NCBI GenBank assembly: GCA_008632985.1
Contig: QPGO01000009.1
Span: 496,001 to 560,000, forward strand
DNA: 64,000 nucleotides
Source: Psammoneis japonica
Lineage: Eukaryota
Direction: 5' to 3'
Shown piece by piece: positions 1 to 64,000 of this stretch; position 1 is the stretch's first letter, and the number at the start of each line of letters is the position of its first letter. The notes under the pieces are model-generated. The model was not told the origin of the DNA. It did not search any database and saw nothing but the letters and a program-made list of their open reading frames with translations. The translations under genes and the position numbers were made by a program.

Positions 1-2854
1 CCTTGACTGTCTTGGGAGACAGCCTCTGCCTTTTGGACCACGTGTTCATCACTCCTGTGGTTCACCACACCATCTGACAATGGATGCTGCACCAAATGCT
101 GGTTGCCTTCACAGTTGCACTGGGCAAACATGTTCTCAGCCATGACACTGGCCATCAGCTTGGTTTCCTGGCCATCAGGGAACTCAACCTTCTTGTGGAC
201 CCCCGTGCCCAGGATGGGATTGGTGCTGGCCAGTCCAGCTGGTGTGCCATCCAGGTTGAGCATGCACCGTGTGACCTTGCTGGTTCTTTGGCACATGTCC
301 CCATGTGGCAGCAACACCTCAGCATTCAAGAGGATGTCATGGGCTGCGTCAGGCAGTGTGTCCTCATCTGGGGCATTGGACGAACCTTGTCCTGAATCAT
401 CCTTGTGTGGGTCAAAGGTGGGAGCAATCACATCAGGGTTGCCAATGTTGCTGATGGTCATCCCAGGGCCTGGCTTGGCCTCCATGATGGTGTCAAACTT
501 GTCACGCATGAGTGCATCTTGTGGCGCAGTTCCTCAGGTGTGAGTGGTCTGCAGGAGGATCAGCAGATGACCCATCCATTCTCCTTGAGTGTCTTTGCAG
601 TCATCACTGGTCTTGCGTCCCTGCTTGGGCCTGGGCACCTCCCTGAGACTTCTTTGTCACAGGGAATGGGACAGCCATGTCCCTGAACATGACCCAGTCA
701 TGCCATCTGACCTCCCATGTGTGTGAAACATTGGCCTTCTGTCCTGACACCACTGTCTCCAGCACTTCACCATTGAGCTTGCAAATGCCATGAAGGGCAT
801 CAGACCAGATCAGAGCTCAAATTCAAGGCAGTCATCCCACAGACGTTTGGGTGCCTGAGTCTTGACCATCTTGTGCCCAACACCTTGCTTGAGCTTGTGC
901 ATGGTGCCTTTGGCAAAGTTGGACCAAGGGGTGCATGGCTTGGTCTGTCAAATGTGGCAGTCCACCACTTGCACCATCTGCTGTCATGGTGTGAGGCACC
1001 CCATCTTGGGTGAAGAGCAGGGGCAGTGCCTCGTGAGCAAGACCTTTGGATCTCATGTGATGGGCATGTGCCCAGCAATTGGCCATGCCAAAAACTGGGG
1101 CACATGTGTCACCGCATCTTGACTTGACAGAAGAGAACAGGGTGTGGGAGCACATCTCCTTTGCAGCGTGGCTGCAATGGAGTTGGCGGTCATTCATGCG
1201 GAAACAATGTAACAGCATTGGGTGCAACATGGTTTGGGCACCGCGCTGAGTGGTGGCCTTGACTGCATTCTCTGTGTCCTTGACACTGATGGACCAATTC
1301 TTGGCCAGCTTTTCAGCATCTGTCTTTAAACCCCATTTTGTCATCTTGAGCAAAGAGAGGCCAACAGAGGCAAGGAGCATGCATTTGTCACATGCATTGG
1401 AAATGTCTTGTGCTCTGAAATGGTTGGTTTCATGGTGGGAAAGCAGCTCTTGTAAATCCATTGAGTTTTAGTGGGATCACCAATTGGTTGTGTGAATCCG
1501 CGTCCTTGAGTGTCACTGCATGTGATGTGCTGTCAGGCTTTGTCAGCAGGAACTTGGGCTTTAAAGTTGAGCCCTGCCTATTCAGCCACAGTTGCGTGGG
1601 ACACAAAAGGCAGTGTTCAAGATGTGGGATGTGGACAGCTTGGTGGACTGCCAAGATGTGGTGTTCACCCAAGGTGGGGTCCGTGCACATCATGGCACCA
1701 ATGATGGTGTGCAAGCTTTTGCCAGTGCCCAAGTCTGGGTCACAACCAACAATGTCTGCTGGGTGATCATGATCAAGCAGAATTGAAGCACATTTTCCTG
1801 ATGCACTTGTGTCAGCATGACCATCTGTCTCAGTCCAAGATCCCCCTCGTGCTCAGCTTCTGTCATGGCAGTCTGAGTCAGGTGCAAAGAGGTTTGAAGT
1901 GGGCTGAGATGCATGACCTTGGGAGGAGGTCACACCTTCCTCCAGCCAGGCTCACAGCCACCAATTTTGTCACACCTGTTCTTGGCCATGGTGTCCTTGA
2001 GAAGAGCAAGATTGTTGTGATTGCTGCACTGCTTGAGGATGACAGGCAGCTTTTTCTCCTCCTCATTAGAGTTGCTTGCAGCATTGTCCTGCTGACCTTC
2101 AAGGTGTGCTTCAATGGCAGCTGCAGTCCAGACAAGAAGGTTGACTTGCTTGGCAGCATCTGACTTGGAATCATTGCATGCATGCCATCATGCAGGGACT
2201 TGAGCTTCTTGTGCACCTTGGGAGAGAATCGGCCGCCATGTTGTTTGTTGGCATGGTGCTCATCCTCAAGTCAATGATGTCCTCAGTGTGGATCACACCA
2301 CACTGCTTGAGCTTGCCAGTCTTCACAGCTGCAATGTGCAGTGAAGGGTTGAAATCCTTGCCAGGCTTGGATTGTTTGAAGAAGTCCTTGCAAAGTGCAA
2401 CCCAGGCATCAAAGTCGCATGATCTGCATGTTTTGACTGAGTCAAGCTTTGGATCCTTGACACTCTCTAGCAGGTGGCAAACCTTGAACTGTTTGTCAAT
2501 GCCATCACAGCCACACTCCTTGAGTCCTTCAAGGATTGTGTGTTGTTTGACATGAACACGTGTGCAGCACTCGAAGTTCCAGTTGCACTTCTCCCTGTGG
2601 CATGAGAGGCCTGCCAGGCACTTCTCGGCAACACTGGCCACATTGTCCACATCATTGGGACCTGGAGAGTGGTTGCACAAGTTGCAACAGGTGGCCCTGC
2701 CATCCTGTGTGTGTTGTGCTGACTCAACATGAGCCCAGCATGAATGCTCTATGGTGATGCCAGATGCCATCGCCCAAACCTTGTGGTTGTCGGGCACAAA
2801 GGTTTCAGCAGGCTGGAGATCATCAGCCCCAAGTGTGGCAGCATGGGGCGCACA

Positions 2855-4750
2855 AGCAAAATCATCTTGGCAATGGCATCCCCATTGCAGTTGGCCTGGT
2901 CGTTGTCTGCTTCAGGTGTGACAGCCGGGTTGTTGCAAGTCACGCAGGCCACGGGTGTGTTGGTCTTGCCCCGGCGTGCATGCAGATGTTCTGTGACAGA
3001 CTCTGCAGTCTTTGGCCAGTCCTTCTCAATGATGTTCAGTGGGGCATCTGGTGCAATGCAGGAGGACTCAACAGTGTGGAGGTGACAGCATCCCCTGATG
3101 CAGTTTAGGGTGACATTGGCAGGATGCAGGTTGCAGGAGATGGGGTGCAGTGGCAAGCAGCGCAAGCGGCGAGCTTGAGATTCATCTCCCCTGGCACGCA
3201 GGGAGACAGCAGTGCCCAAGTTGGGCTGAGGTGGATCTGCTGGGTCTGCTGGAGGAGCCATTCCTCCTGGCCTGCAGATGACCTTGCACAAGGTCTTGAC
3301 CTGGTGGTTGTCCAAATGATGCAGAGTTCATCGACCGAGTCGATTCCCTGCTCATTGGCTGAGGCTGCGGACCCTGAGTCCATGAAGCCCAGATGACAGC
3401 ATGCAGTGTGCATCATTGCAATGGCTGCCATGGTGTTGTCAAAAGGGTGGTGGTTGGTGTTGAAGTTTGTGCAGTGTGTGAAAACTCACAATTCTGGGAA
3501 AAGTGAGGATGATGCACACACTCCGCATTGCTTTTTCATCGTTGCATGTGTTCCGTTAGTTTCATGTGGCCAACATGCCCACAATGAGACACTCACAAGC
3601 AAAATCATCTTGGCAACAGCATCCCCATTGCAGTTGGCCTGGTCATTGTCCACTTCAGGTGTGACAGCCAGGTTGTCCCGAGTCAAGCAGGTCACGGGTG
3701 TGTTGGTCTCGCCCCGGCGTGCGCGCAGATGTTCTGCGACAAACTCTGCAGTCTTCGGCCACCCAGTCCTTCTCAATGATGTTCAGTGGGGCATCTGGTG
3801 CAATGCAGGAGGACTCAACAGTGTGGAGGTGACAGCATCCTCTGATGTGGTTGAGGGCAACATTGGCAGGATGCAGGTTGCGGGAGATGCGGGTGCAGCG
3901 GACGGGTTCCAGTCCCAGGTGGGATTCCGTGTGACATTGGGCCAGCAGAATTCTGCGTGCAAGCTCCGCAGTAAATTCATGCTGCAATGAAAATGTGTGT
4001 GATCACCAACAGAAAAAGAGGCAATTTTATGAACATGTCTCCTCCTTCATGCTTGCAGCACATCATTGACAGTTTGCCTGGGTGTGTTCTTCAGACATTT
4101 GAGAACACACCCAGCGCATTTTCATCATCACAAATGTTGAAAATAGAAAGCCTTTGGCTTTGCAAAACAGGGAGCATGAAACAATTTCGTAGAATGTCGC
4201 ACATAGAAATGCACGTGCGCGACATGCGGTGTGATCCAAAAAACCATTGATGTCACAGTTTGGCAGTGCGAGGTCCCACCTGGAACTGGAGCATGTCAGC
4301 GGCGAGTGGCGCAAGCGGCGAGCTTGAGATTCATCTCGGCCGGCACGCAGGGAGACAGCAGTGCCCAAGTTGGGCTGAGGTGGATCTGCTGGGTCTGCTG
4401 GAGAAGCCATTTCTCCTGGCCTGCGGATGACCTTGCACAAGGTCTCAACCTGGTGGTCGTCCAAATGATGCAGTTCGTCGACCGAGTCGATTCTCTGCTT
4501 GTTGGCTGAGGCTGCAGACCTTGCGTCCGTGAAGCCCAGATGATGGCATGCAGCACGCATCACTGCAATGGCCGCCATGGTGTTGTCAAAAGGGTGGTGG
4601 TTGGTGTCGAAGTTTGTGCAGTGTGTGAGAACTCACAATTCTGGGAAAAGTGAGGACGATGCGATGCGCGCACACTTCGTATCGCTTTTACAGTACATCG
4701 TTGTATCTGTTCCGTTAGTTTTATGTGGCCAACGTGCCTAAAATGAGACA
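2855..4750 (-). repeat. Internal tandem duplication of the 5' gag region of the copia element
   Basis: ~3160-3590 matches ~4310-4750, and ~2855-3140 matches ~3595-3890. Two gag starts at 3431 and 4578. Confidence 0.9.
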
Positions 4751-4790
4751 TGCGTGGTTGAATAAAATATTCACGTTCGTAAGATCTACT

Positions 4791-5177
4791 TGATCGATGC
4801 TGATGGTGAGTGCAAAGTATAATATCGTGAATTATACAGCGAAATAGTATTTGTGTCTGGACATAAAACTGGATTTTAGCGACGAACTTGCGTTATGTCT
4901 TTCATAAATGAATATATTTTAAAATATGATATTATCACCCAGCGATTTTCAAATCGCTCACGCATTTGCTCCGAGATAACTTCGGAATGGAAATGGCGTC
5001 CCAAATCCATGGATTGCACTCTGTGTTCGCGTATGTACTGCATGAAACACATCAGAATAGTCGATACTGTAGTAATCAATAAGTATTATAGTCGAACTCT
5101 AGCTTGGGAGTAAGTAGCCAACTCGTCAAGCACGAGCACCGCTTGTACTCTTAGATGTTTGCTCGTCATCCCTGACA
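4791..5177 (-). repeat. Putative 5' LTR of the copia element
   Basis: TG...CA-bounded segment (tgatcg...cctgaca; minus strand starts TGTCAGG) just upstream of gag, with normal TA and CG content. The second LTR is outside the window, so it is unconfirmed. Confidence 0.5.
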
Positions 5178-5419
5178 CGGTGGAACGAATGCCAGTGTTG
5201 CGAAACGATCGCAAGCGAAATCATCGATACCATTGTTGCTACATGCGGCATATGGCTCTGATAAAGTGAATAAAATACCCTGTGGTCGCACACACTGGGG
5301 AAAGTTTAAAAGAAAGCTTGTGACATCGTGCTGCTATTTTCGAGAAGTGAGCTCACCCGATGAGCTGACATCGAATTGGCTTATCGCTAAATTCCTTATT
5401 CAATGTACAAATTATCACA

Positions 5420-8400
5420 AATTAATTTCACATGGTAAACTCTTCAAATGGCAGGGGTGCTGAGGACATTTTGTTGTCATGTTCATGACTCCTTTTGGTC
5501 TGTTCATGCAGCAACACATCATGCATTTTCTCAATGTCAACCTTGAGCCGAAGGGACCCAGAACACACACATTTTTGTTTTGCCTGTCTTGGGTGCATCT
5601 GCCAGCACAGACCTTCTCCAACAAAGAGTTTGGCAGTGGTGGCTCTGTGGAGATGGATGAGACAGCATTCTTGGACTGGCTCAATGCCCCCCAGCTTCGA
5701 AGTGAGTTCACACTCATTTGTGGAGGATGAGGGCTTCTTGCAGGTGTGTCATGCTTGCAGGTGTTGTGTTGCAAGTTGCACACTGCAGCAATTTTGTGTC
5801 TAGAGCCAGATGTTGCAAAGGGGGCAAAGAAAAGGAAAACATGGGTTGCAAACCCTGGACAACAGAAACAAAAGACATCACAGAATGCCAAGTGTTTGTC
5901 TGCTGACAATGAACCCATCTGCTGCACGGAAAGCATTGCTGGGCTGGTGCTGTTGGAGAAAACAAGAGCTGGACCCATCTGCTGCATGTGGAAAGCATTG
6001 CCAGGCTGGCACTGTTTGAGGAGACAAGGGCATGGCTTCCATTGAAGTGTGGCAAAGATGTGCAAGAAACTGGAAGCTGCTGGCTGGCAATGTGGTGGAT
6101 GCAAATGATTTGAGTGCATCAGAAGCAGAAGAGTTTTACAATGCTGTTGCTGTTTGAAAGCACATGCAAGAAAGGTTGTGCTGCATGTGGCTGTTGTGGT
6201 TGGAGTTGACTGTGACTCCAATGCAGGCAGAGTGTCCAACATTGGTCCAGCCAAAATTCAACATCTCATTGGAGAAAATGATTTGGTGCAGAGCAATTGT
6301 TTGAGAGCACTGTTTCAAGAAGAGAGGCTTGCCAATGGCAGTCCTCAGCATGTGTGCACATTGGCAATTTTGTGCAAGCCAGGAAAACATTGTCAATGAT
6401 GACACCAGCACAGGAAACAAGGTTGCTTTTGTGTGTGCTCCTGTTGCCCACAAATCAATTTGTTGGATCTTGCTTCATGACAAACAACAAGGTCAGAGTG
6501 GCACCCAGCATCTTGAGGAAGGTGCTCAAACTCAAGAAGTCACTCTTTGGGCTCAAAGAATTTTCAAGAAATTTCTCAATTTTCTGAGTTCAAATTTGTG
6601 AGAAGTGGGCTTCAAACAAAATCAAAAAGCAGACCTCCCCCTTGCCTCTTCATTTCAGAAAAGTGCCAGCTTGGTGCCTTGTCTTCATGGAGAGCACTCT
6701 CCTCTGTGCTCTCCAAAACTGCCTCACAAAGATTGTTGCAATCCAATGTCCCCATCAATGGTCATCATGCAGGCTCTGCAGTTTGTTTTGGATTGTCTGG
6801 TCATTTGAACATCAAAACTCATGCCTGAAAGTGCTCTTTTGACAATGGAAGCAAGCACAAGGCACATGGTCTCTGTGCACTCTGATTGATTGCCAGTGGA
6901 ATGGGCCTTGCTTCAAGGCACATTTGCTTCTCAGCTGTGAGTCATGCCAGTGGGTGGATGTGATGCTTGTTGAGGGGATGAACAGAGCGTGCATCCTGTT
7001 GGGGAAGGTGCAAGAGTGCAGGATTGTGCCAACTTAATTGCTCTCTGCTGCAGAGCAGGTGGTGAGCAGTTTTTCTGTGACCTTGCCATGGGAGTTTCCT
7101 CAAATCCTGCACCTCAGCTTCCATCAATGGCCAAACACTCTCTTGTCTCATGCCACACACTGAAGCAGGCACTCTGCAAAACACCATTGCTCATTGAATG
7201 GATTTGGCAGTGAGTGCCTTGTTGCTGTTGCGTGAGAAACTCATTCTTAAAACACCAATCTGCAGCCAAGGATTGGCCCCACATGGCACAACATCTGCTC
7301 ACAGAAAGCTGAGCATCAACGCTCTCTTGATTTTTATTTTAAACTGCCAAATGGCATGTGTTTTCTTCCAATTTGCTCACAAGCCACACCACTCATGTTG
7401 AGTTAACAAGACATCACTGATGTGAACCACACAGATTTAAATCATGCAATGCCATGCACAAACTCCACAACGCAACTCTCCAGCTGCAGTTTCCACCAAG
7501 CTTGCTGACAAGAGAGTGCCGCATTTGCTTTTGATGGTGTCCTTGTTGGAGCCTTCTGGCAAGTTGCAAGTCCTTTGGCACGACAGCAACACACTTTCCA
7601 TGAATTGCTCAAAGATTGGCATCTTCAAAGAGTCCAGCCAAATGAGCTTTAGAGGCCTCTTGTGGTGCCAAGATGGCAGAACCTTGCCAGCAAAAGTTTT
7701 CTTTTTGTAACCTTGATTTTTGAGTCTCACACACCAACCTGGCAAAAGGCAAATGATGCAACAACAACTTGGTGCTTCCCTGGCAAGCTCGGATTTCCTT
7801 CAGAGCCTTTTCCCCTGGAAATGAAAATGAGGAAGTGAGCAATTGGGTGAGGAAATTTGAGTTAGATTTGCTGAAATTGCACTCAAAAACATCAAACACA
7901 CCACAGCGCATGTGGTGCTTCCTCTTTGGCTTTGCTTTGACTCAGGTCTACAACCCAAAACTGGAATGTCAGCTCTTGCATGATGGTGTCGGCCTCCAAC
8001 CAAGGTGCCACCAGCACCACTTGCCCTCTGAGATGGCCCCAAAGAATGGATGTGATCTTGTGTCTCACCATGGCCGGCTTCTGCTTCTCTGTTTGAGCAA
8101 GAGACGAGAGAGCAAAGTCGAGCTTTTTGTACATTCATGAATGTTTTTTACATTTGTCACAGAAAAAGCTGTCCATCACTGTCTCATTGTTGTCTGGGGT
8201 GCAGCAGGATTGCATTTTTGTGTTGTTGAGTTTGCCGCCAATTGGTTGATTGCCAAACACACCTGTTGCTTCATGTGCAAAGCTGGGTTTGAGACAGCAT
8301 GTGCCAAGAACAAAACAAAGCTTGTTCACTCACCCCTCAAAGATGTTGAGCTCTCACAACAGTTTGATGATGGAGTGAGCTGATGCACACGCCACTTCTT

Positions 8401-48899: not shown

Positions 48900-51800
48900 C
48901 TCAAGCAATCCCCTGGTGACAGCACAAAGCAAGGGCATCAGGTGGTTTGGCTGCTTGCAGTCTAAGAGAGAGATTCCGGACCGTCATGTTCAATGTTGTG
49001 GCACAGTCTTTGGGTGACAGCAGCATCGCCGTGGGCTGCGTTGGCAAAATGGCAACCAATCGGCTTCCTCGCTCCCCATTTCTAGGTTCATAATCACCAA
49101 GGAGACGACTCTCATCCGATCCCATGAGTGGGTCAAACTTAAATTAAGCAACTTGCTTGTTGGCAAAACCCGGAGCTGGAGGTGCGATCTGGCTGTTGCT
49201 TGACACAAGAAACTGTGCAAAGGAGGAAACGGCACCCGCCAAGCGTCGATCGTGAATGCCAACAATCCCACTACAAACTTTTGGTCTGGTCGGTGATCAT
49301 CATCGAAGGGATTCATTGCCGCACACCACGGACAGGGTTCAAGGAATGCACCAACTTTGGATGGGACAACAGAGTGCGATTGGTCGCACTCAAAAGACTG
49401 CCACCATCGAGTTGCAGCCATGGGAGGAATCCAACCAAGCAATCATTTTCAACACATGCCCTTCAAGAGTGACGGCATTTGTGACACTCTCAAGTGCCGT
49501 GGCCATCCCTGCCCAGTCTCACGTCAATTTCCGTGAGCTGCCCAAAACCTTTGTCCACCGGCGGGCAATCCAATGCAACGACACGGAGCTCATTGTCTTC
49601 TTCAGCAATCGCAAAAAAGTTCCTCAGTGCCAAGCATCAACATTGTCGTTGACATTTTCCCATTCAATCCTGGACATGACAGAGGATGGCGTGCAGTTTG
49701 CAATGACATTGCTCTCCTCTCCACTGACATTTCCCACGCACACCAAGCTGCCCAGAATTGCACAAGTGAGAAAAGTGATCCCTGACAAGCCTTGAAAAAT
49801 GACACGCCACGCATGGGACAAACTGTGGTCAAAGTTGCCACAAAAGTGGGAGGTGGAACAAGTGCTCCAAAGAAAGGGGCACAAAATTGAATGACGTGCT
49901 TGTGCAAAAAGGGAGAAATTGACCAAGCATCCAACTGGGCATTCCAGACAGAGAGAGCACAAAGCATCAAACAAGAAAGAAACTCATGTCAAAGCCATGG
50001 CAGAGAATTCCAAGGAAGCCAAGACCAACAGGACCAAGGACGACATGGCTGGGATGGCAGAACTCATCAAGAGAGGTGTGCCACAAGTGGAGGCTCAAAA
50101 GCAGGCCTTTTTGGTCAATCCATCAATGGACATTGCCCAGTTGCAACTTCTGAGATTGTTGCAACTGTGGAAGAATCCATCTTGGCAAAGGTGAACAAAG
50201 TTGAGGCCAGAGAAATCAAAGAGAATTTTGAGATGCCAGAATCATTGAAAGAGATGCACAGCATGGATGATCAAGAGCAGTCAAAACCACAGGCTGAAGT
50301 TTCAACAGATGCTGTCAGAAATGAGGTGGAAGATTGCTCATTTCTCAATCAAGACAAAGCTTCAGTGTTCAATGCAAGCAAGCAGGAAACAATGACAAAG
50401 CCACCACCCATTTGTGTCATTTCATCTTCCAACATGCACCATGAAGCACCTCATCTTGAAGACTCCAAACCTGTTGCTGTGAAGGTTGTGGGTGGCACAG
50501 TGCCTGACTGTCACCCTCCTTTGATTTGCACACACAAGGTCAGTTGATTGACAGCTCATGCAAAGGAGTGCATTGGGGCACAAGGCATTTTCAGGAGGAG
50601 AGGCAGACAACATTGCAGCAAAAGATTGTCAGTGACATCTTGAACTCATGTTTGTAAATTCACAATGAGCACGGGTTTCATGACCACTTTTTTGGCTTCT
50701 GCTGCACCAGGGCAACATGGCGATGTGCAGCAACGGCATCAATGGCAGCATGGGAGATGTGTTTGCAGCCCACATTGTGAGTCTTGGAGTTGACAAGACT
50801 GGTGCAGACCAGCTGGCAAGCCTTGAAGTTCTGACACTGAATGGCACCTCTTGAGCCAGGTCCTGCTCATGGGATGGTGTGTCGACTCCTCATTTTGTGA
50901 CACTGCTGACAGCAACCTGTTGCAACACATCAACCCAGCACCAAACATTGCCACTGCAGAGCAGCTTGTGATGAGTGCCAGCACATCAAAGAACAATCCA
51001 ACACTGTCATGTGGCAACAACAAGTGCCGCGGTGCACAAAGTGCTCTGACCAAAATTTAAAAAAAAAGCTCAAAGAAGCCAAAGGCTCTGTGAGGGAATG
51101 CTGCCTTGTTGTGTCTCTGTGGTGAGAGATTCAGTGTGCCCATTTTGTCAAGTCTTTTGTTTGAATTTTCAACTCAGATTGTGGCACTTTCTCTGTGCAA
51201 AAAAATTTCCACGCAGCTTCAGCTCCTTTTCTGCTCTTCAGCACAAGAAATGATGTGCAAAGCACACCCAGTTCTTCTTGTGTGCACAGCACTTGGACAG
51301 ATTTTTGAGATGACAATGGGTCAAGTTGAGTCATCTGTCGCTTTTCACCAGCCTTCTCTTTCCAAGTTTTCTTGAAATGAGTTTGCACTCACAAAGGGTG
51401 TTCACTTTTTTTCTTGGTGCCGAGAAGTGTGGGGAGGCCTTGCAGCAGTGCTTTCAATTGGGGGGCCTGTGCAACTCTGTGCATGACTGCTTTCTTTCTC
51501 TCAACCCTGCGCTGTCTTCTCTGTGCTGTGTGTGTGTGTTTTTTTTTGTTGATGTTTCATCACAGGAAGTTCTTTTGCTTTTTCAAGCACATCATCGTTG
51601 GAGCACACGTGTTTTTTCCATGATTGTGTCACAAATGATCAAAACATTGGCCATTTTTGATGCTTTTTAAAAAAGCATTTGTCCAAAAAACAAGGGATTT
51701 TGCACCCCTTGATGTCATGTTTTAATTGTCACAATGTTGTGTGACACATGCACAGCATTCAAAAATCAAATGATCGTTGGGCCATCATCGCGACACTCTT

Positions 51801-54800: not shown

Positions 54801-55920
54801 GCATTGGGTGCCAAAAGCAAGCAGCAGTTGAGAGATGTTCTGCAGCGTGTTTTGTGCTGTGACCCAGCAGCAAGAGAGCTGGCTGCTGCCCCCCAGCTGG
54901 CCCCAGCCAAGAAGGCCGAAGGTTGTCCGCAGCCAAGCAGCACCCCACAAAGTGTTTTCAATGCCATTTTGGGGTGTGTGACAGCTGCGCCAGTTGAGAT
55001 TTGCCTCACAATTTGGTGTGAAACAAAGTGTGGCGTGCAGACAAGGAGAGAGTTTGTGCAGAACCAGTGTGTCCAGCTGCAGCTCTGATGGCTGCAAGAG
55101 GCAAAGCAAAAGATGCCAGGATGGCACCACATGCCAGCTCTCACAGAGAGCCCTGCTGCAGGCTGCATCTTAAAGAAACAGGTGGAAGGGATGAACAAGA
55201 TGCCAAAAGAGAGACTTGTGAGACGGCTTTGGGTGCCAAAAGCACAAGCAGCTGAGATGCTCTGCACAGCACAACCCAGCAAGAGCTCATTGCCACAACA
55301 GCAAGCCAGCTGAGAAACTCTGCATGTTGTCCATGACCAAGCAACACCTTGCAAACTGCAAAGTGTTCTCAGCACCACTTTGGGGTTTGGCCCAGTTGTT
55401 GTTGAGAGCTGCCTCACAAAAAACTGCTGCTTTGGTGCTTGTTGCAGATCTGGAAAATCATCTCTTTGCAGCTTTGGCAAGGAGCTCTCCAGCATGATGA
55501 TCATGAACAAAAGCAGCAACAGCAGCAGCAGCAGCAAAAAGCAGTGCTGTGTGTTGGAGCAGCAAGAAGCCAGAGTAACAACAAAAAGAAAAGACAAAAA
55601 GTGCAGACAAGTTCACAGGTGTGCAGCATCTGAGGTGGCCAGAAATGATCTCCAGCACATGCCAAAGCCAAAGCCCAAGGTGGGCAGCAGCAGAAAGCAG
55701 AATCAGGGCAAGGAAACAAAGGCTTGCTTTTGTGAGGATGGCATGAGCAAAGTCAAGAAGCCACAGCGCCAAGCTTTTCGGATGAATTGCACAATTTTTG
55801 TTAAGAAATCAAAAACAAACGGGAAAATCGGCGAAAGCGTCATTGAGACATCATGCCGTAAAGTGAGACACCGGCGGCACGCATCATTGTGGTGCTGCAG
55901 TTTGTTGCGTGGTGCCTGCG
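48900..55920. other. TpA-depleted hypermutated domain (CpG loss variable)
   Basis: TA nearly absent. CpG is retained at ~49000-49600, 51800-52300 and 55750-55920, and lost in the cores. Includes an internal repeat (~54760 vs ~55185). Confidence 0.85.
51879..52750 (+). pseudogene. Ankyrin-repeat gene remnant, hypermutated
   Basis: GWTPLHCAC, GHTPLHLAAMNGH, GLTALHIA, GNTPLHSA, GLTPLDC. Frameshift near 52290. No Tyr in the ankyrin region. Confidence 0.85.
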
Positions 55921-56012
55921 AAGCATACATATTCATCGATGTATGTCGGTAATCCAAACTGAAAATTGACCCATTACCTTTCTGTCTTTCTTCATAATTG
56001 TGGATGTCACTT

Positions 56013-56112
56013 TATAGCGTACATAGGGGAGATTTGTAGCGTACATAGAGGCAGAATGACCCTATAACGTCAGCAGCTCTCTATGTACGCTATAAACTTT
56101 ATAGCGTACATA
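56013..56112. repeat. Cluster of an 11-bp motif TAGCGTACATA (three direct copies, one inverted)
   Basis: Direct copies near 56015, 56037 and 56102; inverted ctatgtacgcta at 56081-56092. Confidence 0.85.
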
Positions 56113-56529
56113 TTATTTCCACGAGCATTGTATTGCTAACGAATCCAAATAATTTTATTTCTATATTTGACCGTAAATGCAGTGTTTATTATTTTCATAA
56201 ATAAAATCCGTGAGACATGAAGACACGTCGGACATTTTCCTACTTAGGTTGATGACATCATCTATCACTATTTTAATTAAGCCTTCGACGCCAAACGAGG
56301 CCGGTGTCAGGCAGTTCCGACGCACGCCTACCCAGAAAGACCCTTATGACGTCATTTATGACGCAAGTTAAACTCACACTAAATGTTCGAATAAAAGTTA
56401 CCTAAATGCAATTGTCACGTTTCTTCGCCAATAAAGTCTAACGAACAAGCAATCGTCCGGGACAACAAATGACAAACACTAGATCGGTGACTCCTGTAGC
56501 CCCTCAATTTTAACAATGCAGCACAATTT

Positions 56530-59500
56530 ACAGCAAAAGTGTTGTGTCATGTACAGCATGTGCGTGTCGATGGAAATCACGACAAAGATCATTTGTTGCC
56601 TCACACAAAGACTTTTGCCGAAGTCGTCAAGAGCTCAAAAACCAAAACTCCAAAACCAGCAAACGAAAAACGCTTGGCCACAGCGCTGAAGATTGCAGCG
56701 GCATTCCGAGTTTGGGTTCGAGATGATTGCTTTGATTGAGCCCAGCACATGCCATTTAAATTGTGTCAAAACCAACTTTGCACTTGACTGACACGATTGC
56801 CTTCCCGCGAAAATTTGAACGATGAAAGCACGCACTTGGCCACACACTTTCGTCATCTCACAATCGCAGCTCTGGCAAGAAAGCAAAGTGTCGCATCAAC
56901 AATGTCACCATGTTGTGCACTTTCATCTTCTTGAGTGCCTTGTTTCTCTTTGATGAATCTGGCCGAACCATGGATGAGTTCAGCCCAGTTGGCGCAATTT
57001 GCTGGTTCCTCGTGTTTCTCTTTTTGAGAGAAGTCAACGTCTGGTTGTTCGCGGTTTTTTGCCTCATCTGTCTCTTTCTGGTCTTCAAGGAGCAATGCCA
57101 GATGCACCTTTGCGACAAGGGCTGGACCACCACTTTGACCTTTGAAGACAACAAGCCATTTTTGTCGCAAGTTCTCCATTGCTCTTGTTTGAACTGCCTG
57201 TTGCGACGCCATGTGTTTCTGATGTCCCGTTCGTTCTTTTGTTTTTCTCGCATTCAGCCCTGATTGTGGCATTGGTTGGAACGACAACGTCAAAGTTTTG
57301 CCAAGCCCTCCCATGCACCAGCTCAGCTCTGCTCACTGTGATGGTTGCACGTGGCAGAGCTTTCCGAACGTCAAGTTGAATTCTGTCTGGTCGTCCATCG
57401 TCAGATCTCCCATCTGGAGCCCAGTCTATCTCTTCTTCGTCAAGTTCAAGAAATTCTTGCTGAAGTGTGTGGGTCTCGTCATTGGCATGTCCAAGGGATG
57501 CATCAAGCGTGTCGACTTTGCGAGTGCTGCAGCTGTCTTGAAGTGCTTCGATTTGACTGCTGTTGTTGTCGTGTTTCACTTCGGCATTGCTTTCAAGAAT
57601 TTTGATGTCAGCAGCCTCATGGGATTTCTCTTCCGTCTCATGTTGGTGGCAGCACTGGCCTTTCTCATTCACGTGCATGCGACGGGATTGTGCTTGCCAT
57701 CAACCGAGGACGATCTGTCTGGCCATCGCAACGACCATGTCAAGAAACCTTGTTGGAAGGAGCCAACGTCCAAATTCAAGAAGGGACAGCACGTGCATTG
57801 TTGCCATTCGAACGAGACATTCAGGGCAAAGATTTTGAAGGTTTGCTTCAACGACGACTTTGTCCCATGCTGCGACGTGAAATTGGGCGATGAACGCGAG
57901 AAGCAGACGACCGATGACCACCTTTCGGACAAGCTGGGGTCGGGTCACTTTTGATTTTTCAGTGACATCTTTGACGACCATCCGGATTGCGACTTGTGAG
58001 GTTCTCAATGGGGAGGGGAGGGGACATCGTTGTTGCAGTCTTGTGACGATTGTCATTCCAACAAGATGTTCGACTGGGGAGAATTGCCGAGCATTTTTAT
58101 GGGGGTGCGGCTGTGACTTGCAGTTCTGGCTCGCTTTTTCGAAAAGCAGGCCTTTGCTGTCAAAATGAGAGGTGCAACCATTGAAGTGCTTTGTGAAGGA
58201 CACTTTGATTGATCACGTTGGGTCTTGAATTCAAGCTTGTGTTGGATGCACAGGGCCCTGTGTGCCTCGAGCTGATTCCGAAGCATGTCTTTGTTTTTGA
58301 ACAACATGTGATCGAGAACAAGAGATCCATGTGTCATTCAAACTCACACTCATTTTATGGACATGTAAATTGAGTTGTTTCTGAAACAAAATCCGAAAGA
58401 GGCGCCTTCTTTTTGAAAGCAGAGTCAAGTGGAAAAGGAAAATTGAAGCCAAGGAAACACTGCTCGAGACGAGAAACGCATGGAGACACTTTTTTCTGTT
58501 CTGGTTCAGTTGGGTGATCTGTCATTGCTTTCATTCGATCAAGATGAGCAGAGTCTTGTAAAATGCAAACATGAAATAAAAATGAAAATTTGATCAACAC
58601 TTCTCCATCTCGTTGTGAACCAGTTTTAATGGCACCATTCGTCATTCGTGTCGCAATCGATCAATCGAAGGCTGAGGACGCCACCACGGCATCGGCAGAC
58701 CAGCGCGGCACCCATTTGCTGCGGACTGGTTCCTTCTCAACAATGGGGTCCGTCTCAAGCACAAGAACAGCAGTGCAGTCTATCCTGACAAATTGACACT
58801 GCGACAGCCACCATCTGCTGCCAGTTGTAAAAAACAAAGTGAAGCCCTCCCGAGAACGAAGTTGTCTGATGTCCGACCGAAACAAGGTTGGGTGGAATGC
58901 CGGGCATGTCACTCGCAACTTCAGCACACTGAACATGGTTCGACAACACTGCCAAGTGTCGAGTGTCAGATCATTGCAGTCACAGAGTTCAGAGTGGAAG
59001 GCCTCCGGTGAGTTCAAATCACAAAAATCACCGGACGATGGACGACGGACGGAAAACATGGGCGATTTCCAAAGAAAACAGGCGCACTTTCAAAAATTCG
59101 GTGTGCACACCCAATCCACACAAAATGTGCGTACGTAAAAATGCACTGCAAAATTCGTAGAGATGTTCATTTGAACTCACTTCACACACAAACATCACGG
59201 CAATGATGCCGCGACATCGGCAATGGACGCACACAACAACGACAGCGGACTGGGAGGTTGTGATGCACCGAGACAACAACTGATGTGATGAGAAATGAGA
59301 CATCAATGTCAAATGACAATGATCAAGTTGTTTTGGGAGCTGGTTGAGCCATTGGTGACGAAGGGTTTTTGGCACGTGCAACTTGGCACTGAAATCACGC
59401 AGAGGTTTTGGCCACGGTGGGACTGTTGTTTTTCACTTTTTTTGGGTGCATTTTGTGTTTTCTTGGTCGATCGCATTGACGAAGCACTGAAGTGAGCACG

Positions 59501-59650
59501 AGACAACAGATTTTGATGAAAAGTTGGATTTTCATTCATTGTGGAGGATTGGCACGGGGTTTTTAACACGGTGAAGCACGGGGGGGCGATTTTTTTCACC
59601 AGATTTGCAAGATCCTGCATCCCATCCAATTCGCGTGCGCAACACCAGTG
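56530..59650. other. TpA-depleted but CpG-rich domain with unidentified coding remnants, including a small SH3/Tudor-like motif at ~57772-57933 (+)
   Basis: TA rare while CG is frequent. KFKKGQHVHCC..AKILKVCFNDDFVPCCDVKLGDEREKQT resembles a 'DD..PYY.I.L.DGREKQT' motif I recall from diatom proteins, with Y->C/H. Confidence 0.7.
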
Positions 59651-60013
59651 GATTCATGTACTTTTTATACGCAAGAAGCGCAATGATGTCGATGTACCCG
59701 ACATGATAGACTTCCCGTGCTGTTGTCGTAATGAGTGAAATCTTGTTGTGTTCGGTGCGTAGAGTCTAGCACTGTTTGTCCGTATGTAGACGAGTGCTGC
59801 GCACCGCACTTTTGGAAAGTACGCCACTCCATTATTTCCTTATTTCCTTGGCAGGAGGAGCGCGTCGCGCGTGCGGTTCAAGGAAGTTAGACGGGACTGA
59901 TTCAGTCACGTGCTCATCATTCCTCAAAACAGCACACACCATGAGAATCGGAGCGGCCTATTAGACTAATTCCGATCCTTTCAACAATACCAACGCTTTC
60001 TACTAGTCTTTAC

Positions 60014-62965: not shown

Positions 62966-63602
62966 TGTCATGTATCCTACCCAAAGTGCGAGCTACATAA
63001 ATAGATGAGATGCCGTCATACTGCCTGACGGTTACGGTACCGGTAAGCCTCTTTACCATCTCGCTCGCTCAGTGGGCACTTTAATGTCTTAACCATTGAA
63101 TCAACTAGTACATCGCCTACGTGGACATATCACCACACGCGACATCCTCCTTACTAGTGACTTCAATGTTCTTCGTTCAACGGAGATCGATTCAGATTTC
63201 TTCGATACTCCTCGTTCCTTTGTCAAGTCGGTTCCCCTGAGATTCCTGATTCCTAGGTCAGAGAATCGGTCTGTACACCGCTCCTTCTCATCCCTTCGAA
63301 CAGAAAGTCTCTTTCGAGTTTCGAACCTTCGACCTCTTTGACCTCACCGCCAATCGGAACTTTCAGCTGCGAAGACCTCGTCTTGCATCCGCTGTGTCAA
63401 GTAGCTATGTAGGTATCTCACCATGTCATGTATCCTACCCAAAGTGCGAGCTACATAAATAGATGAGATGCCGTCATACTGCCTGACGGTTACGGTGCCG
63501 GTAAGCCTCTTTACCATCTCGCTCGCTCAGTGGGCACTTTAATGTCTTAACCATTGAATCAACTAGTGCATCGCCTACGTGGACATGTCACCACACGCGA
63601 CA
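62966..63602 (-). mobile_element. Non-autonomous miniature LTR retroelement (TRIM-like)
   Basis: 179-bp TG...CA direct repeats at 62966-63144 and 63424-63602 around a 279-bp non-coding interior. 6-bp TSD AACAGC (62960-62965 and 63603-63608). On the minus strand, a TGG-starting PBS-like sequence (TGGTGAGATACC) follows one LTR and a purine tract AAGGAGGA precedes the other. Confidence 0.9.
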
Positions 63603-63608
63603 AACAGC

Positions 63609-64000
63609 AGCGAATCATGGCTACACAGTGCAGCTTTGAAATCATCTGGCAGAGGAGCGGTGATGCTGGGCAACCCATCCAACTCCAAACAGAGACAGTG
63701 GAGTCCGAGTCGATTCAACCCCAGTCGTTGCCGCCACCATCGATTGACTTTGGAATCTCCATGAGCAGTGTCACCAATCACAGGTTGTCCCATTCTTTGT
63801 GCGTGGCGGCGAATCTGATGTGTCCGTCCTCCCAATGCGGGTTCCACCAACACTGCACAAGACGAACCAAAAGTTTCACCATCCTTGCCAGTTGCAGCAC
63901 AATGAGATGAAATGACAGCAAACTTCGTCTTGGCTTCCTTTTCGATCCCATGAATGTTGAGTGGTGCATCAACGACGCAGAACGCTTCATCGTGACGCGA
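63609..64000 (-). pseudogene. RluA/TruC-family pseudouridine synthase C-terminal part, interrupted by the TRIM; 3' remainder at ~62830-62959
   Basis: GRTHQIRRH...PVIGDTAHGD...RLGLHCL. The frame continues across the TSD as LLGALWKQATIFEPRLLLEPVD. Confidence 0.82.

What the first reader, a model, noticed from the sequence alone, without database searches (positions are those of the whole stretch)
1..64000. Domain-restricted TpA->TpG/CpA hypermutation: a candidate 'reverse-RIP' genome-defence system
Seen: seven sharply bounded domains, over 30 kb in total, have almost no TA dinucleotides and excess TG/CA, while the intervening genes are normal. Their ORFs lack Tyr (TAY) and are Cys/His-rich. The copia segment GRCPGPS..AKTLK..IC*SSCRPL departs from the CoDi consensus I recall (GRYLGPS..AKILK..YRS.YRPL) by TAC->TGC, CTA->CCA, ATA->ACA and CGA->TGA. 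Established: 5mC deamination explains CG->TG/CA only, and fungal RIP creates TpA rather than removing it. Inference: a second process causes A:T->G:C transitions at TpA in transposon or heterochromatic DNA. Candidate mechanisms are a TadA-like DNA adenine deaminase (TadA-derived editors favour TA), Pol eta-type error-prone repair (WA motif, as in somatic hypermutation) coupled to mismatch repair, or a mutagenic A or T modification. I know of no description of this in diatoms, but I cannot search the literature.
Basis: partly seen in the sequence, partly recalled or inferred. Interest (0 to 1): 0.95.

Follow-up and report, generated by a model that had tools for sequence, protein, structure and literature searches.

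The report
TpA-erasing hypermutation domains in a diatom
About 29 kb of silent, decayed DNA in this diatom window has had almost every TA turned into TG or CA while neighbouring genes are untouched, the same odd mutation signature that a 2026 preprint reported in an unrelated alga.

Summary
Seven sharply bounded domains (29.25 kb) hold 89 TA against about 1,266 expected (TA o/e 0.04-0.07 inside, 0.56-0.83 outside), with TG/CA at 1.4-2.0. The direction is TA->TG/CA. This is shown by normal versus erased repeat pairs, by a repeat that straddles a boundary, by CA<->TG doublets, and by Tyr->Cys/His at conserved positions of an H3-like and a DDE-transposase remnant. CpG->TG/CA decay co-occurs but varies separately (CpG o/e 0.09-0.83). 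Converting TA and CG in silico in the window's own normal DNA reproduces the domains' k-mer composition. Accurate-read contigs from a public run reproduce the TA-free sequence. Relatives of the transposase elsewhere are not TA-poor (0 of 26 loci). AA, AT and TC are not depleted, which argues against Pol eta and against 6mA at ApT. A 2.3 kb duplication is untouched, so the process is not RIP-like by homology. The host is a diatom by its best-named relatives. A 2026 preprint measured the same TpA-only hypermutation in Bigelowiella natans. Six literature searches found no report in diatoms. The enzyme is unknown; a 5'-T-dependent DNA adenine deaminase is my favoured mechanism, by inference only.

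The parts
1..4679 (.). Domain 1: TA-erased block, open at the window's left end. CpG o/e is about 0.1-0.3 up to about 3500 and 0.5-0.7 from 3500 to 4679. It contains tandem repeats with a period of about 745 bp.
   Evidence: 16 TA observed against 203 expected; TA o/e 0.063; CpG sub-blocks; repeats.
4680..5436 (.). Island 1: 757 bp of ordinary AT-rich DNA (GC about 0.41, TA o/e about 0.76, CpG o/e about 1.2) between domains 1 and 2, with razor-sharp edges on both sides.
   Evidence: TA positions; composition; sequence read.
5437..14950 (.). Domain 2: the largest and most fully erased block, depleted in both TA and CpG.
   Evidence: 24 TA observed against 412 expected, p=1e-140; CpG o/e 0.09; X1 contigs match with 1 difference over 5001-7814 and 6 over 9352-16188.
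7612..7941 (-). H3-like histone-fold remnant (pseudogene) inside domain 2. Both conserved Tyr in the aligned stretch are replaced: TGC Cys and CAT His. L->P is CCA, and three Arg are replaced by TGY/CAT codons. The frame continues past an in-frame stop.
   Evidence: Pfam Histone E=1.5e-13; alignment to solved H3 chains; codons; read-through seen in the text printed.
20128..23603 (.). Domain 3: block depleted in both TA and CpG. It contains three collinear segments (21446-21727, 21841-21921, 23026-23092) that are homologous to normal DNA at 26073-26751.
   Evidence: 11 TA observed against 150 expected; homology found in full and purine/pyrimidine alphabets; alignment.
26073..26751 (.). Un-erased homologue of part of domain 3, used as a proxy for the ancestral state.
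   Evidence: 69% nucleotide but 86% purine/pyrimidine identity; TA and CG here align with TG/CA in domain 3.
34001..35398 (.). Domain 4: 1.4 kb block with TA erased but CpG largely kept (o/e about 0.67). It holds a DDE_3 transposase remnant.
   Evidence: 5 TA observed against 61 expected; best-fit conversion TA 0.9, CG 0.1.
33932..34756 (-). DDE_3 (Tc1/mariner-type) transposase remnant. It has 0 Tyr in 275 residues, and three well-aligned conserved Tyr columns read His CAC, Cys TGT and Cys TGC.
   Evidence: Pfam DDE_3; 552 relatives at E<=1e-3; Tyr content of relatives; column analysis.
49146..55801 (.). Domain 5: TA-erased block that is a mosaic of CpG-poor and CpG-retaining sub-blocks. It holds ankyrin-repeat ORFs (51816-52879, +) and a TLDc fragment (53583-53927, -). 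The left edge is graded over about 0.5 kb.
   Evidence: 18 TA observed against 288 expected; CpG bins 0.00-0.74; Pfam; TA positions.
55802..56552 (.). Island 2: 751 bp of ordinary AT-rich DNA (GC about 0.41, TA o/e 0.83, CpG o/e 1.27) between domains 5 and 6.
56553..59658 (.). Domain 6: TA erased with CpG almost intact (o/e 0.64-0.95). This is the clearest case of TA loss without CpG loss.
   Evidence: 14 TA observed against 134 expected; CpG o/e 0.83.
63577..64000 (.). Domain 7: start of a further TA-erased block, cut off by the window's end.
   Evidence: 1 TA observed against 18 expected.
63424..63602 (.). 179-bp direct repeat copy whose end abuts domain 7. It differs from its partner (62966-63144) at 3 sites, all TA in the partner and TG here.
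   Evidence: chance probability 2e-4.
3148..3603 (.). Inner copy of a repeat whose outer copy (4297-4762) straddles the sharp boundary at 4680. Beyond 4680 the outer copy keeps TA where this copy has CA.
   Evidence: Alignment.
23757..29625 (.). Control: a 2.3 kb direct duplication (23757-26013 and 27349-29625, 94.7% identical) lying in normal DNA and not TA-erased.
   Evidence: spectrum: A of TA->G is 5 of 102 and 2 of 101 in the two directions.

Best explanation
SHOWN. The domains are genuine genomic DNA in which nearly every ancestral TpA has been converted in place to TpG or CpA. These are A:T->G:C transitions on either strand, about 50:50, site by site. CpG has separately decayed to TpG/CpA, to a degree that differs from block to block. 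The erased DNA is decayed and non-coding-looking. It is partly transposon-derived (a DDE transposase remnant) and partly pseudogene-like (H3-like, ankyrin, TLDc). Intron-containing genes with spliced transcripts, ordinary intergenic DNA, two AT-rich islands and a 2.3 kb duplication are untouched. INFERRED. This is the saturated end state of the TpA-specific hypermutation measured directly in Bigelowiella natans mutation-accumulation lines. The most likely chemistry is enzymatic deamination of an adenine preceded by T (A to hypoxanthine, copied as G) by a CDA-fold, TadA/ADAT2-type deaminase. I infer that it is recruited by position or chromatin state rather than by sequence repetition. I infer that CpG loss is a second, slower process: 5mC deamination in the same silenced DNA. 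The shown part I hold at about 0.9; the deaminase and chromatin targeting at about 0.45. The confidence given is for the whole statement.
For: Reality: TA is 89 observed against about 1,266 expected, with 49 TA-free gaps of 200 bp or more against 0 in 200 shuffles. X1 contigs with k-mer depth of about 65 reproduce 5001-7814 (1 difference), 9352-16188 (6) and 19339-23783 (7). Direction: across four normal-to-erased blocks, A of TA->G is 9 of 26 and T of TA->C is 8 of 25, against 6 of 88 and 23 of 130 for other A and T (pooled p=0.0015). C of CG->T is 11 of 32 and G of CG->A is 16 of 32. With a stricter filter, 1 of 19 TA and 2 of 24 CG are kept. A repeat straddling the 4680 boundary keeps TA only outside it. 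There are 20 CA<->TG doublets in 1,212 aligned bp of in-domain repeats against 0 in 2,527 bp of controls. H3-like remnant: 2 of 2 conserved Tyr become Cys (TGC) or His (CAT). DDE remnant: 0 Tyr in 275 residues against a 3.67% median in 150 relatives, and 3 of 4 well-aligned Tyr columns become His or Cys (the fourth, 41% Tyr, reads Phe). Sufficiency: in-silico TA (0.9-1.0) plus CG (0.1-0.8) conversion of the window's normal DNA raises the dinucleotide correlation with the domains from 0.50-0.93 to 0.92-0.98 and the tetranucleotide correlation from 0.46-0.84 to 0.88-0.95; the TG/CA mass balance is 0.96-1.04. Two processes: TA o/e is 0.04-0.07 in all domains while CpG o/e is 0.09-0.83. Not a family trait: 0 of 26 related transposase loci are TA-depleted. 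Position rather than homology: the 2.3 kb duplication is untouched, and the same sequence is erased at 21.4-23.1 kb but not at 26.1-26.8 kb. Recency: 3 of 3 differences in the repeat abutting domain 7 are TA->TG, and 1 of 6 X1-versus-window differences in domain 2 hits one of its 24 residual TAs. Precedent: in B. natans, 230 of 231 mutations in two integrated viral regions were A->G or T->C, the GC-biased ones all at TpA, at about 6e-7 per site per generation, and an ADAT2-like candidate was proposed (Results and Discussion read). From established knowledge (recalled): TadA and ADAT deaminate A34, which always follows U33, so a 5'-T requirement is natural for this fold.
Against: No enzyme, inosine, chromatin or methylation data exist for this organism, and no whole genome is held, so no TE-family consensus or proteome search was possible. 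TA is palindromic, so A->G on one strand cannot be told from T->C on the other; a mutagenic T modification fits equally well. There are no strand-coordinated TG or CA runs of the kind single-strand deaminases often leave (runs z between -0.8 and +1.8). ADAT2 is universal in eukaryotes, so its presence cannot explain a lineage-restricted signature. In E. coli, amphioxus ADAT2 preferred GAA for adenine, not TA (passages read). The direction evidence rests on about 500 aligned bp plus two protein remnants. T of TA->C alone is not significant (p=0.11), and 'other T->C' is high (23 of 130), so the 'normal' copies are imperfect ancestors. Of 47 departures of the DDE remnant from consensus, only 11 are explained by TA and 4 by CG conversions; 22 need another single change and 10 need two or more. 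Targets are only partly identifiable, and a viral origin as in B. natans is not shown. X1 may be the sample the window was assembled from, so it is not independent support.
Confidence: 0.5

Rival explanations
1. A mutagenic thymine or adenine modification is responsible rather than direct adenine deamination. For example, a TET/JBP-type oxidation of T at TpA to 5hmU or 5fU could mispair with G and give T->C. Alternatively, an adenine modification at TpA could be lost as hypoxanthine.
For: TA is palindromic, so every observation here fits T->C as well as A->G. The even TG:CA split and the lack of strand runs suit a symmetric duplex-DNA mark. That 5-substituted uracils promote A:T->G:C transitions is recalled knowledge and was not checked here.
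Against: The known eukaryotic 6mA systems act at ApT (recalled), and AT keeps 83-103% of the modelled frequency while TA keeps under 7%. No such modification at TpA is known to me in diatoms. Nothing in the window bears on it directly.
Confidence: 0.17
2. One dual-specificity deaminase erases both palindromic YpR steps in the same DNA, adenine in TpA and cytosine in (T)CpG, without needing 5mC.
For: TA and CG boundaries nearly coincide in domains 2 and 3. Surviving CpGs in domains 2+3 are depleted in TCG (0.64x) and enriched in GCG (1.6x), p=1.5e-4. Amphioxus ADAT2 deaminated both A and C in DNA with a TCG preference (passages read).
Against: TA loss is uniform (o/e 0.04-0.07) while CpG loss ranges from almost none (domain 6, 0.83) to near complete (0.09), and sub-blocks within one domain differ, which is the behaviour of two separate processes. 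The TCG bias is modest and could reflect methylation preference or GC-rich clusters. CpG methylation of diatom TEs by DNMT5a is established in Phaeodactylum (passages read) and is enough to explain CpG decay. TC outside CpG is barely depleted (0.86-1.02).
Confidence: 0.1
3. Editing occurred before integration. Transposition or viral intermediates (RNA or cDNA) were hyper-edited, ADAR- or APOBEC-style, and then inserted, so the domains are simply the inserted elements.
For: Several boundaries are razor-sharp, and two ordinary islands lie between erased blocks, as expected if each block is an insertion. ADAR-type enzymes favour a 5' U (stated in the preprint's Discussion).
Against: A repeat unit is erased inside but not outside the 4680 boundary. 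A repeat copy outside domain 7 shows 3 TA->TG changes next to the edge. A segment homologous to non-mobile flanking DNA is erased at one position only. The one identifiable element is a DNA transposon, not a retroelement. Erasure of 93-96% on both strands, with independent CA/TG resolution between tandem copies, implies many events in place. That ADARs are confined to animals is recalled.
Confidence: 0.05
4. Sequencing or assembly artefact: a modified base in heterochromatin is systematically miscalled, so TA is read as TG or CA.
For: The platform behind the window is unknown. Systematic miscalls at modified motifs are known for some long-read base-callers (recalled).
Against: Contigs built from exact 31-mers at depth of about 65, up to 6.8 kb long, reproduce the TA-free sequence with 14 single-base differences over about 14 kb. 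The domains also carry indels, frameshifts, in-frame stops and non-TA substitutions typical of old pseudogenes. CA versus TG doublets between tandem copies are not what a deterministic miscall would give.
Confidence: 0.03
5. Error-prone repair at WA motifs by Pol eta, coupled to mismatch repair as in somatic hypermutation, acts in these domains.
Against: WA includes AA, but AA/TT is not depleted (obs/model 1.03-1.21 in five domains, 0.72 in GC-rich domain 1). A->G at non-TA adenines is 6 of 88 against 9 of 26 at TA. There is no strand bias.
Confidence: 0.03
6. The blocks are foreign DNA that was TA-poor when it arrived, or TA is removed by selection. No hypermutation is involved.
For: Some viruses avoid TA (recalled); most of the domain DNA has no identifiable relatives.
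Against: Homologous normal copies in the same window carry TA exactly where the domains have TG or CA. Conserved Tyr codons became Cys or His. Relatives of the transposase are not TA-poor (0 of 26). Converting the window's own normal DNA reproduces the domains' k-mer spectra.
Confidence: 0.02

Closest known systems
TpA-specific hypermutation of integrated viral DNA in Bigelowiella natans (Mettrop et al., bioRxiv 10.64898/2026.01.13.699255; abstract, Results and Discussion read)
   Same: [quoted passage not shown] They are confined to particular regions of non-host-like DNA. The long-term signature is TpA depletion with CpA+TpG enrichment in clusters of consecutive 1-kb windows. DDE endonuclease and reverse-transcriptase domains are enriched among TpA-poor CDS there, and a DDE remnant sits in domain 4 here.
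   Different: The host is a diatom (stramenopile), not a chlorarachniophyte (rhizarian). Erasure here is saturated (TA o/e 0.04-0.07), against Rho 0.45 for their NCLDV region and a 0.43 cut-off for their clusters. Identifiable targets here are a DNA-transposon remnant and pseudogene-like fragments, with no shown viral origin. CpG decay co-occurs here, whereas the preprint's text does not contain 'CpG'. No de novo rate is measured here. The enzyme is unknown in both.
Fungal repeat-induced point mutation (RIP)
   Same: It works similarly in outline: regional, near-saturating transition hypermutation of a specific dinucleotide that destroys the coding capacity of mobile or silent DNA, with sharp edges.
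   Different: The direction is opposite, since RIP turns CpA into TpA and so creates TA. RIP is triggered by duplication and hits both copies, whereas here a 2.3 kb, 94.7% identical duplication is untouched and one of two homologous segments is erased alone. RIP's RID/Dim-2 cytosine-methyltransferase chemistry cannot act on A:T pairs.
CpG decay by 5-methylcytosine deamination in methylated transposons (diatom TEs are CG-methylated through DNMT5a: PMC9998398, passages read)
   Same: It explains the CG->TG/CA component and why that component is confined to the same silent blocks.
   Different: It cannot remove TA. TA loss here is complete even where CpG is almost intact (domains 4 and 6).
TadA/ADAT2-ADAT3 tRNA adenosine deaminases and their DNA-acting forms (amphioxus ADAT2, PMC10354150, passages read; engineered adenine base editors, recalled)
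   Same: The chemistry (A to hypoxanthine, read as G) gives A:T->G:C. The natural substrate A34 follows U33 (recalled), which matches a 5'-T requirement. DNA activity on both A and C has been shown for the amphioxus enzyme.
   Different: No such enzyme has been linked to this signature in any organism. The reported DNA preferences of the amphioxus enzyme in E. coli were TCG and GAA and hairpin loops, not TA in duplex chromatin. These enzymes need single-stranded or looped substrate, and no strand-run signature is seen here.
APOBEC3 and ADAR editing of retroelements and viruses in animals
   Same: Host deaminases that hypermutate parasitic nucleic acids in a dinucleotide context; ADAR favours a 5' U (as stated in the preprint's Discussion).
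   Different: APOBEC gives C->T, not A->G. ADAR acts on dsRNA, and any genomic trace needs reverse transcription. Here resident DNA, including a DNA-transposon remnant and flanking sequence, is changed in place.

Membership tests
TpA-targeted regional hypermutation (B. natans type, 2026 preprint) | [quoted passage not shown] | tested here: met
   At TA positions in the normal-to-erased pairs, 17 of 23 changes are A->G or T->C and 6 are transversions or misalignments. Differences between in-domain repeat copies are mostly transitions: 29 of 32, 26 of 29, 14 of 21, 23 of 33 and 24 of 32.
TpA-targeted regional hypermutation (B. natans type, 2026 preprint) | The mutated A is preceded by T, or the mutated T is followed by A (TpA only) | tested here: met
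   TA keeps under 7% of its normal level, while AA/TT, AT and TC keep 72-121%, 83-103% and 86-102% of the model. A of TA->G is 9 of 26 against 6 of 88 for other A.
TpA-targeted regional hypermutation (B. natans type, 2026 preprint) | [quoted passage not shown] | tested here: met
   1-kb windows in domains 1, 2, 3 and 5 have TA o/e 0.00-0.14 and mean TG/CA o/e about 1.6-2.0 over many consecutive windows. Domains 4 and 6 meet the TA criterion but have TG/CA of only 1.26-1.59, because CpG is retained.
TpA-targeted regional hypermutation (B. natans type, 2026 preprint) | Targets are integrated foreign DNA (NCLDV, virophage, transposons) | tested here: inconclusive
   One DDE_3 transposase remnant was found. 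H3-like, ankyrin and TLDc fragments could be host pseudogenes or viral genes. Of the 212 domain and flanking ORFs scanned, only these matched Pfam. No retroelement or virus hallmark was found.
TpA-targeted regional hypermutation (B. natans type, 2026 preprint) | A directly measured, about 1000-fold elevated de novo mutation rate | not testable with these tools
   There are only hints of recency: 3 of 3 TA->TG differences in a near-identical repeat at the edge of domain 7, and one X1-versus-window difference at a residual TA.
Fungal RIP | C:G->T:A transitions, chiefly CpA->TpA, so TpA accumulates | tested here: not met
   The direction is the opposite: TA is removed and CA/TG accumulate.
Fungal RIP | Triggered by sequence duplication, with both copies mutated | tested here: not met
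   The 2.3 kb, 94.7% identical direct duplication is not erased. Of the homologous segments at 21.4-23.1 kb and 26.1-26.8 kb, only the first is erased.
5mC-deamination CpG decay | Loss of CpG to TpG/CpA with no effect on TpA | tested here: not met
   The CpG component fits (27 of 32 CG converted), but TA is lost too, and fully even where CpG o/e is 0.83. This process therefore explains only part of the pattern.
Pol eta / somatic-hypermutation-type WA mutagenesis | A:T mutations at WA (both AA and TA), usually strand-biased | tested here: not met
   AA/TT is not depleted; TG:CA skew is at most 0.13 and there are no runs.
   No retroelement Pfam family at E<=0.05 in three minus-strand frames of 1-4601, nor in the domain 1 ORFs. 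No LTR-like long repeat pair was found in domain 1. Heavy erasure could hide a true relationship.

The most novel reading that the evidence does not exclude
Diatoms and chlorarachniophytes share an inherited, chromatin-targeted DNA adenine-deaminase defence, an 'A-RIP'. It erases every TpA in silenced or invading DNA within thousands of years. That would make regional A:T->G:C editing an old and widespread genome-immunity arm of the SAR supergroup, and perhaps of eukaryotes, and its enzyme a natural duplex- or chromatin-acting adenine editor.
Probability: 0.3. Interest if true: 0.92.

Novelty: new member of a known kind. Interest (0 to 1): 0.74.

Why it matters
If the reading holds, a mutational process so far documented in a single rhizarian alga, in a months-old preprint, also operates in diatoms, one of the ocean's main primary producers. 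Here it has run to completion across whole blocks of silent DNA. That matters in three ways.

1. **Finding the enzyme.** Two distant lineages carrying the signature make the unknown enzyme tractable by phylogenetic profiling: look for genes shared by species with the signature and absent from species without it.
2. **Annotation.** Erased elements lose all Tyr codons and about a tenth of their bases, so they escape homology searches. Almost all of the 29 kb here is unrecognisable. Diatom repeat, pseudogene and viral-insertion content is therefore probably underestimated, and composition-based gene finders will be misled by long TGA-only ORFs.
3. **Biotechnology.** A natural enzyme that makes A:T->G:C changes in chromatin with strict 5'-T context would be of direct interest for base editing.

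It also gives a simple genome-wide diagnostic: TA o/e below 0.1 with TG/CA above 1.5, independent of CpG.

Tried and rejected
- **Whole genome.** None is held, so no TE-family consensus, genome-wide scan or deaminase search was possible.
- **Six-frame Pfam scans.** I replaced them with plain ORF references and one small X-read scan.
- **Copia label.** Not supported.
- **RNA.** No RNA holder was listed for 20301-26500. X2, filed as 'DNA?', behaves like RNA, with spliced GT..AG joints in the 17-19.7 kb gene. It has no cover over 5001-15005 and next to none (0-0.86) over 20342-23676. This is a part without cover and I do not use it as evidence of silence.
- **Strand coordination.** No strand-coordinated TG or CA runs were found.
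- **Domain 4 element ends.** No terminal inverted repeats or TA target-site duplication were found.
- **Collinearity across 23604.** Homology of 23093-23770 with 26752-27360 is not above shuffles (143.5 against 132.5 +/- 10.3), so a whole-unit tandem duplication is not shown.
- **Further paralogues.** tblastx of domains against normal DNA found none; the domain 5 ankyrin ORFs are not detectably related to the 17 kb ankyrin-HDAC gene.
- **Longest domain ORF.** The ESM Atlas gave nothing usable for the 353-aa ORF.
- **RNA genes at boundaries.** No tRNA or Rfam family anywhere in the window.
- **TA-erased relatives elsewhere.** 0 of 80 metagenome loci have whole-locus TA o/e below 0.30. The 10 loci with a TA-poor 600-bp window are GC 0.59-0.68 and have no TG/CA excess. 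The search pattern favours intact copies, so this says nothing about how common erasure is.
- **Earlier notes of this scan.** Nothing relevant.
- **Literature.** Six searches found only the B. natans preprint for TpA hypermutation and none in diatoms or stramenopiles. Subscription-only papers are not covered, and the preprint's supplements were not seen.

Full report
**1. The observation.** A 1-kb sliding window shows blocks where TA observed/expected falls to 0.00-0.14 and the mean of TG and CA rises to 1.5-2.0, while the DNA between them has TA 0.4-0.9 and TG/CA about 1.0-1.3. A two-state segmentation finds seven such blocks. Refined by the positions of single TAs they are 1-4679, 5437-14950, 20128-23603, 34001-35398, 49146-55801, 56553-59658 and 63577-64000, together 29,253 bp. 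They contain 89 TA, against 1,504 TA in the remaining 34,747 bp. Each domain is depleted at Poisson p between 2e-7 and 1e-140. The window has 49 TA-free gaps of 200 bp or more (longest 1,543 bp), whereas 200 shuffles gave none (longest 187 bp). Six edges are razor-sharp and others are graded over about 0.5 kb. Two islands of ordinary AT-rich DNA, 757 and 751 bp long, lie between erased blocks. ORFs inside the domains have 0.07% Tyr against 2.36% outside, with Cys 2.1-fold and His 1.6-fold higher. The total is 29 kb, not over 30 kb.

CpG is also depleted, but unevenly: o/e is 0.09 in domains 2 and 3, 0.28 in domain 1, 0.39 in domain 5, 0.67 in domain 4 and 0.83 in domain 6, and it varies in sub-blocks within domains 1 and 5. 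TA loss is uniform at 0.04-0.07. The 'copia' peptide exists at 643-542 on the minus strand, but no retroelement family is detectable in the three minus-strand frames of domain 1, even reading through stops, and the consensus it was compared with was recalled. That piece of evidence is therefore not confirmed.

**3. Is the sequence real?** Contigs of a public run (X1; built from exact 31-mers, depth about 65, pieces up to 6.8 kb) lie on 5001-7814 with 1 difference, on 9352-16188 with 6 and on 19339-23783 with 7 plus 13 gaps. They do not restore TA. X1 may be the very sample that was assembled, so it is not independent, but it argues against a long-read base-calling artefact. The domains also carry indels, in-frame stops and ordinary substitutions.

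**4. Host.** No genome is held. The 671-aa ABC-transporter ORF at 43829-45844 has its best relatives at 50-61% identity, and all 8 of the 120 listed rows that name an organism name genera I know as diatoms. The nearest cluster to the domain 4 transposase includes a transcript of Gedaniella, a fragilarioid diatom. Spliced contigs show introns of 76-97 bp with GT..AG ends in the ankyrin-HDAC gene at 17-19.7 kb. I therefore treat the host as a diatom, not closely related to any sequenced one.

**5. Direction of change.**
- (a) A segment of normal DNA (26073-26751) is homologous to three collinear pieces of domain 3, at 69% nucleotide but 86% purine/pyrimidine identity. Where the normal copy has TA or CG, the domain copy has TG or CA.
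- (b) A repeat unit occurs once wholly inside domain 1 (3148-3603) and once across the sharp edge at 4680 (4297-4762). To the right of 4680 the outer copy keeps TA where the inner copy has CA.
- (c) Pooling these blocks, A of TA->G is 9 of 26 and T of TA->C is 8 of 25, against 6 of 88 and 23 of 130 for other A and T (pooled Fisher p=0.0015; T alone p=0.11). C of CG->T is 11 of 32 and G of CG->A is 16 of 32. With a stricter local-alignment filter, 1 of 19 TA and 2 of 24 CG are kept.
- (d) Between tandem copies inside domains there are 20 CA<->TG doublets in 1,212 aligned bp, against 0 in 2,527 bp of repeats in normal DNA. A doublet needs an ancestral TA or CG resolved independently in each copy.
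- (e) An H3-like remnant (7612-7941, minus strand; Pfam E=1.5e-13), aligned to solved H3 chains, has Cys (TGC) and His (CAT) at the two conserved Tyr. It also has Pro (CCA) for Leu, GAT|GCC for GAT|ACC, and three Arg replaced by TGY or CAT codons.
- (f) The DDE_3 remnant (33932-34756, minus strand) has 0 Tyr in 275 residues, against a median of 3.67% in its 150 best relatives. At the four Tyr-consensus columns in the well-aligned part it has His CAC, Cys TGT, Cys TGC and Phe. Of its 47 departures from consensus, 11 are single TA->TG/CA steps, 4 are CG steps, 22 are other single steps and 10 need two or more.

**6. Sufficiency and specificity.** I converted TA (90-100%) and CG (10-80%, fitted per domain) to TG/CA at random in the window's own normal DNA. 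That raises the correlation with each domain's composition from 0.50-0.93 to 0.92-0.98 for dinucleotides and from 0.46-0.84 to 0.88-0.95 for tetranucleotides. It also predicts GC content: domain 4 is 0.516 observed and 0.508 modelled, against 0.475 for normal DNA. The gain in CA/TG balances the loss to within 4%. AA/TT (obs/model 1.03-1.21, or 0.72 in GC-rich domain 1), AT (0.83-1.03) and TC (0.86-1.02) are not erased. This rules against a WA-motif polymerase signature and against loss at ApT. The 2.3 kb direct duplication in normal DNA (94.7% identical) shows no TA effect. Relatives of the transposase fetched from metagenomes are not TA-poor: 0 of the 26 clear relatives, with TA o/e 0.53-0.94.

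**7. Clues to mechanism.**
- TG and CA are gained about equally (skew at most 0.13), without runs and without more local dispersion than in normal DNA. Both strands are therefore hit independently, in many events.
- Surviving TAs are biased: 21 of 89 are TTAA, against 60 of 1,504 in normal DNA (p=4e-10). A 5' T is 2.35-fold over-represented and a 5' A 0.34-fold (p=1e-18). No ATAT, ATAC or GTAT survives. This may reflect enzyme context, or the contexts in which new TAs arise.
- Surviving CpGs in the most decayed domains are GCG-rich (1.6x) and TCG-poor (0.64x, p=1.5e-4).
- A 179-bp repeat whose end abuts domain 7 differs from its partner at 3 sites, all TA->TG in the abutting copy (chance about 2e-4). 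One of the six X1-versus-window differences in domain 2 is a TA->CA at one of its 24 residual TAs. The process therefore looks recent and can spill about 100 bp beyond an edge.
- Targeting follows position, not homology: the same sequence is erased at one place and intact at another, and duplication is not enough to trigger it.

**8. What the targets are.** Across the 212 ORFs scanned, the domains yield only a DDE_3 transposase remnant, an H3-like fold, ankyrin repeats and a TLDc fragment. The rest is unrecognisable, as expected when about a tenth of the bases and every Tyr codon have changed. No viral hallmark, LTR or terminal inverted repeat was found. No tRNA or Rfam RNA marks the edges.

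**9. Comparison with what is known.** Six literature searches turned up one description of this signature: a 2026 bioRxiv preprint on Bigelowiella natans, of which I read the abstract, Results and Discussion.
- In its mutation-accumulation lines, 231 of 302 nuclear single-nucleotide mutations fell in an integrated NCLDV and a virophage region. Of these, 230 were A->G or T->C, the GC-biased ones all at TpA, at about 6e-7 per site per generation.
- It reports 124 TpA-poor, CpA+TpG-rich clusters genome-wide and suggests an ADAT2-like deaminase.
- Its text does not contain 'diatom', 'stramenopile' or 'CpG'.

The window meets its signature criteria, far more extremely. By my arithmetic from its figures (6e-7 per site, with 3.3% of dinucleotides being TpA), a TpA would have a half-life of a few tens of thousands of generations, so saturation as seen here is the expected end state. 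The pattern is not RIP: the direction is opposite and it does not depend on duplication. CpG decay by 5mC deamination is plausible, since DNMT5a methylates TEs in Phaeodactylum (passages read), but it explains only the CG part.

For the chemistry, amphioxus ADAT2 deaminates both A and C in DNA, but with TCG and GAA preferences in E. coli (passages read). That is a proof of principle for the fold, not a match to the context.

**10. Verdict.** This is a real, striking and mechanistically unexplained mutational process. It is best filed as a new, stramenopile member of a kind first described in 2026 in a rhizarian, and here it is saturated and superimposed on separable CpG decay. I favour a 5'-T-dependent DNA adenine deaminase recruited by chromatin position, at about 0.45. 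A mutagenic T or A modification cannot be told apart from it by sequence.

Noticed in passing
window 23757-26013 and 27349-29625: A 2.3 kb direct duplication, 94.7% identical (98.2% in the purine/pyrimidine alphabet), lies in normal DNA. RNA-like contigs of run X2 lie on its first copy. It is not TA-erased.
   Followed up: partly
window 4680-5436 and 55802-56552: Two islands of almost the same length (757 and 751 bp), AT-rich (GC about 0.41) with CpG o/e above 1.2, each lie between two erased domains with sharp edges. They are not detectably similar to each other. They may be original host DNA between insertions, or protected active elements.
   Followed up: partly
window 56000-56115: A short motif (about 13 bases) recurs in both orientations within island 2, including a 31-bp palindrome at 56082-56112.
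   Followed up: no
window 33174-33677 (-): An RNase H-like ORF (Pfam RVT_3 E=6e-12, RNase_H E=3e-6) lies directly downstream of the erased DDE remnant on the same strand, but it has ordinary TA and CpG content. Its relation to the transposon is unclear.
   Followed up: no
proteins P0156 and P0222 (public metagenome contigs of 810 and 1,440 bp): Two of the 150 best relatives of the DDE remnant have no Tyr at all. P0156 has Cys at both conserved Tyr columns it covers, and P0222 at 1 of 3. These may be TA-erased copies in other environmental organisms. Their DNA could not be fetched.
   Followed up: partly
window 15006-20341 (run X2): Run X2 is filed as 'DNA?' but its contigs skip 76-97 bp stretches with GT..AG ends in the ankyrin-HDAC gene, so it behaves like a transcriptome.
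   Followed up: partly
window 15980-16188 and 19339-19522: A 393-base contig in both X1 and X2 joins 19522 back to 15980 with 15-18 mismatches per side. It probably comes from a diverged paralogous locus elsewhere in the genome.
   Followed up: no
window 2838-4762, 8168-9412, 54574-55278: Tandem repeats lie inside domains 1, 2 and 5, with periods of about 745, about 620-750 and about 430 bp. Their copies differ mainly by CG/TG/CA interchange.
   Followed up: partly
window 54551-55612 (-): A 353-aa open frame in domain 5 is longer than I would expect by chance even with TGA as the only common stop (my rough estimate is about 0.15 such ORFs expected). It has no Pfam or Atlas match.
   Followed up: partly
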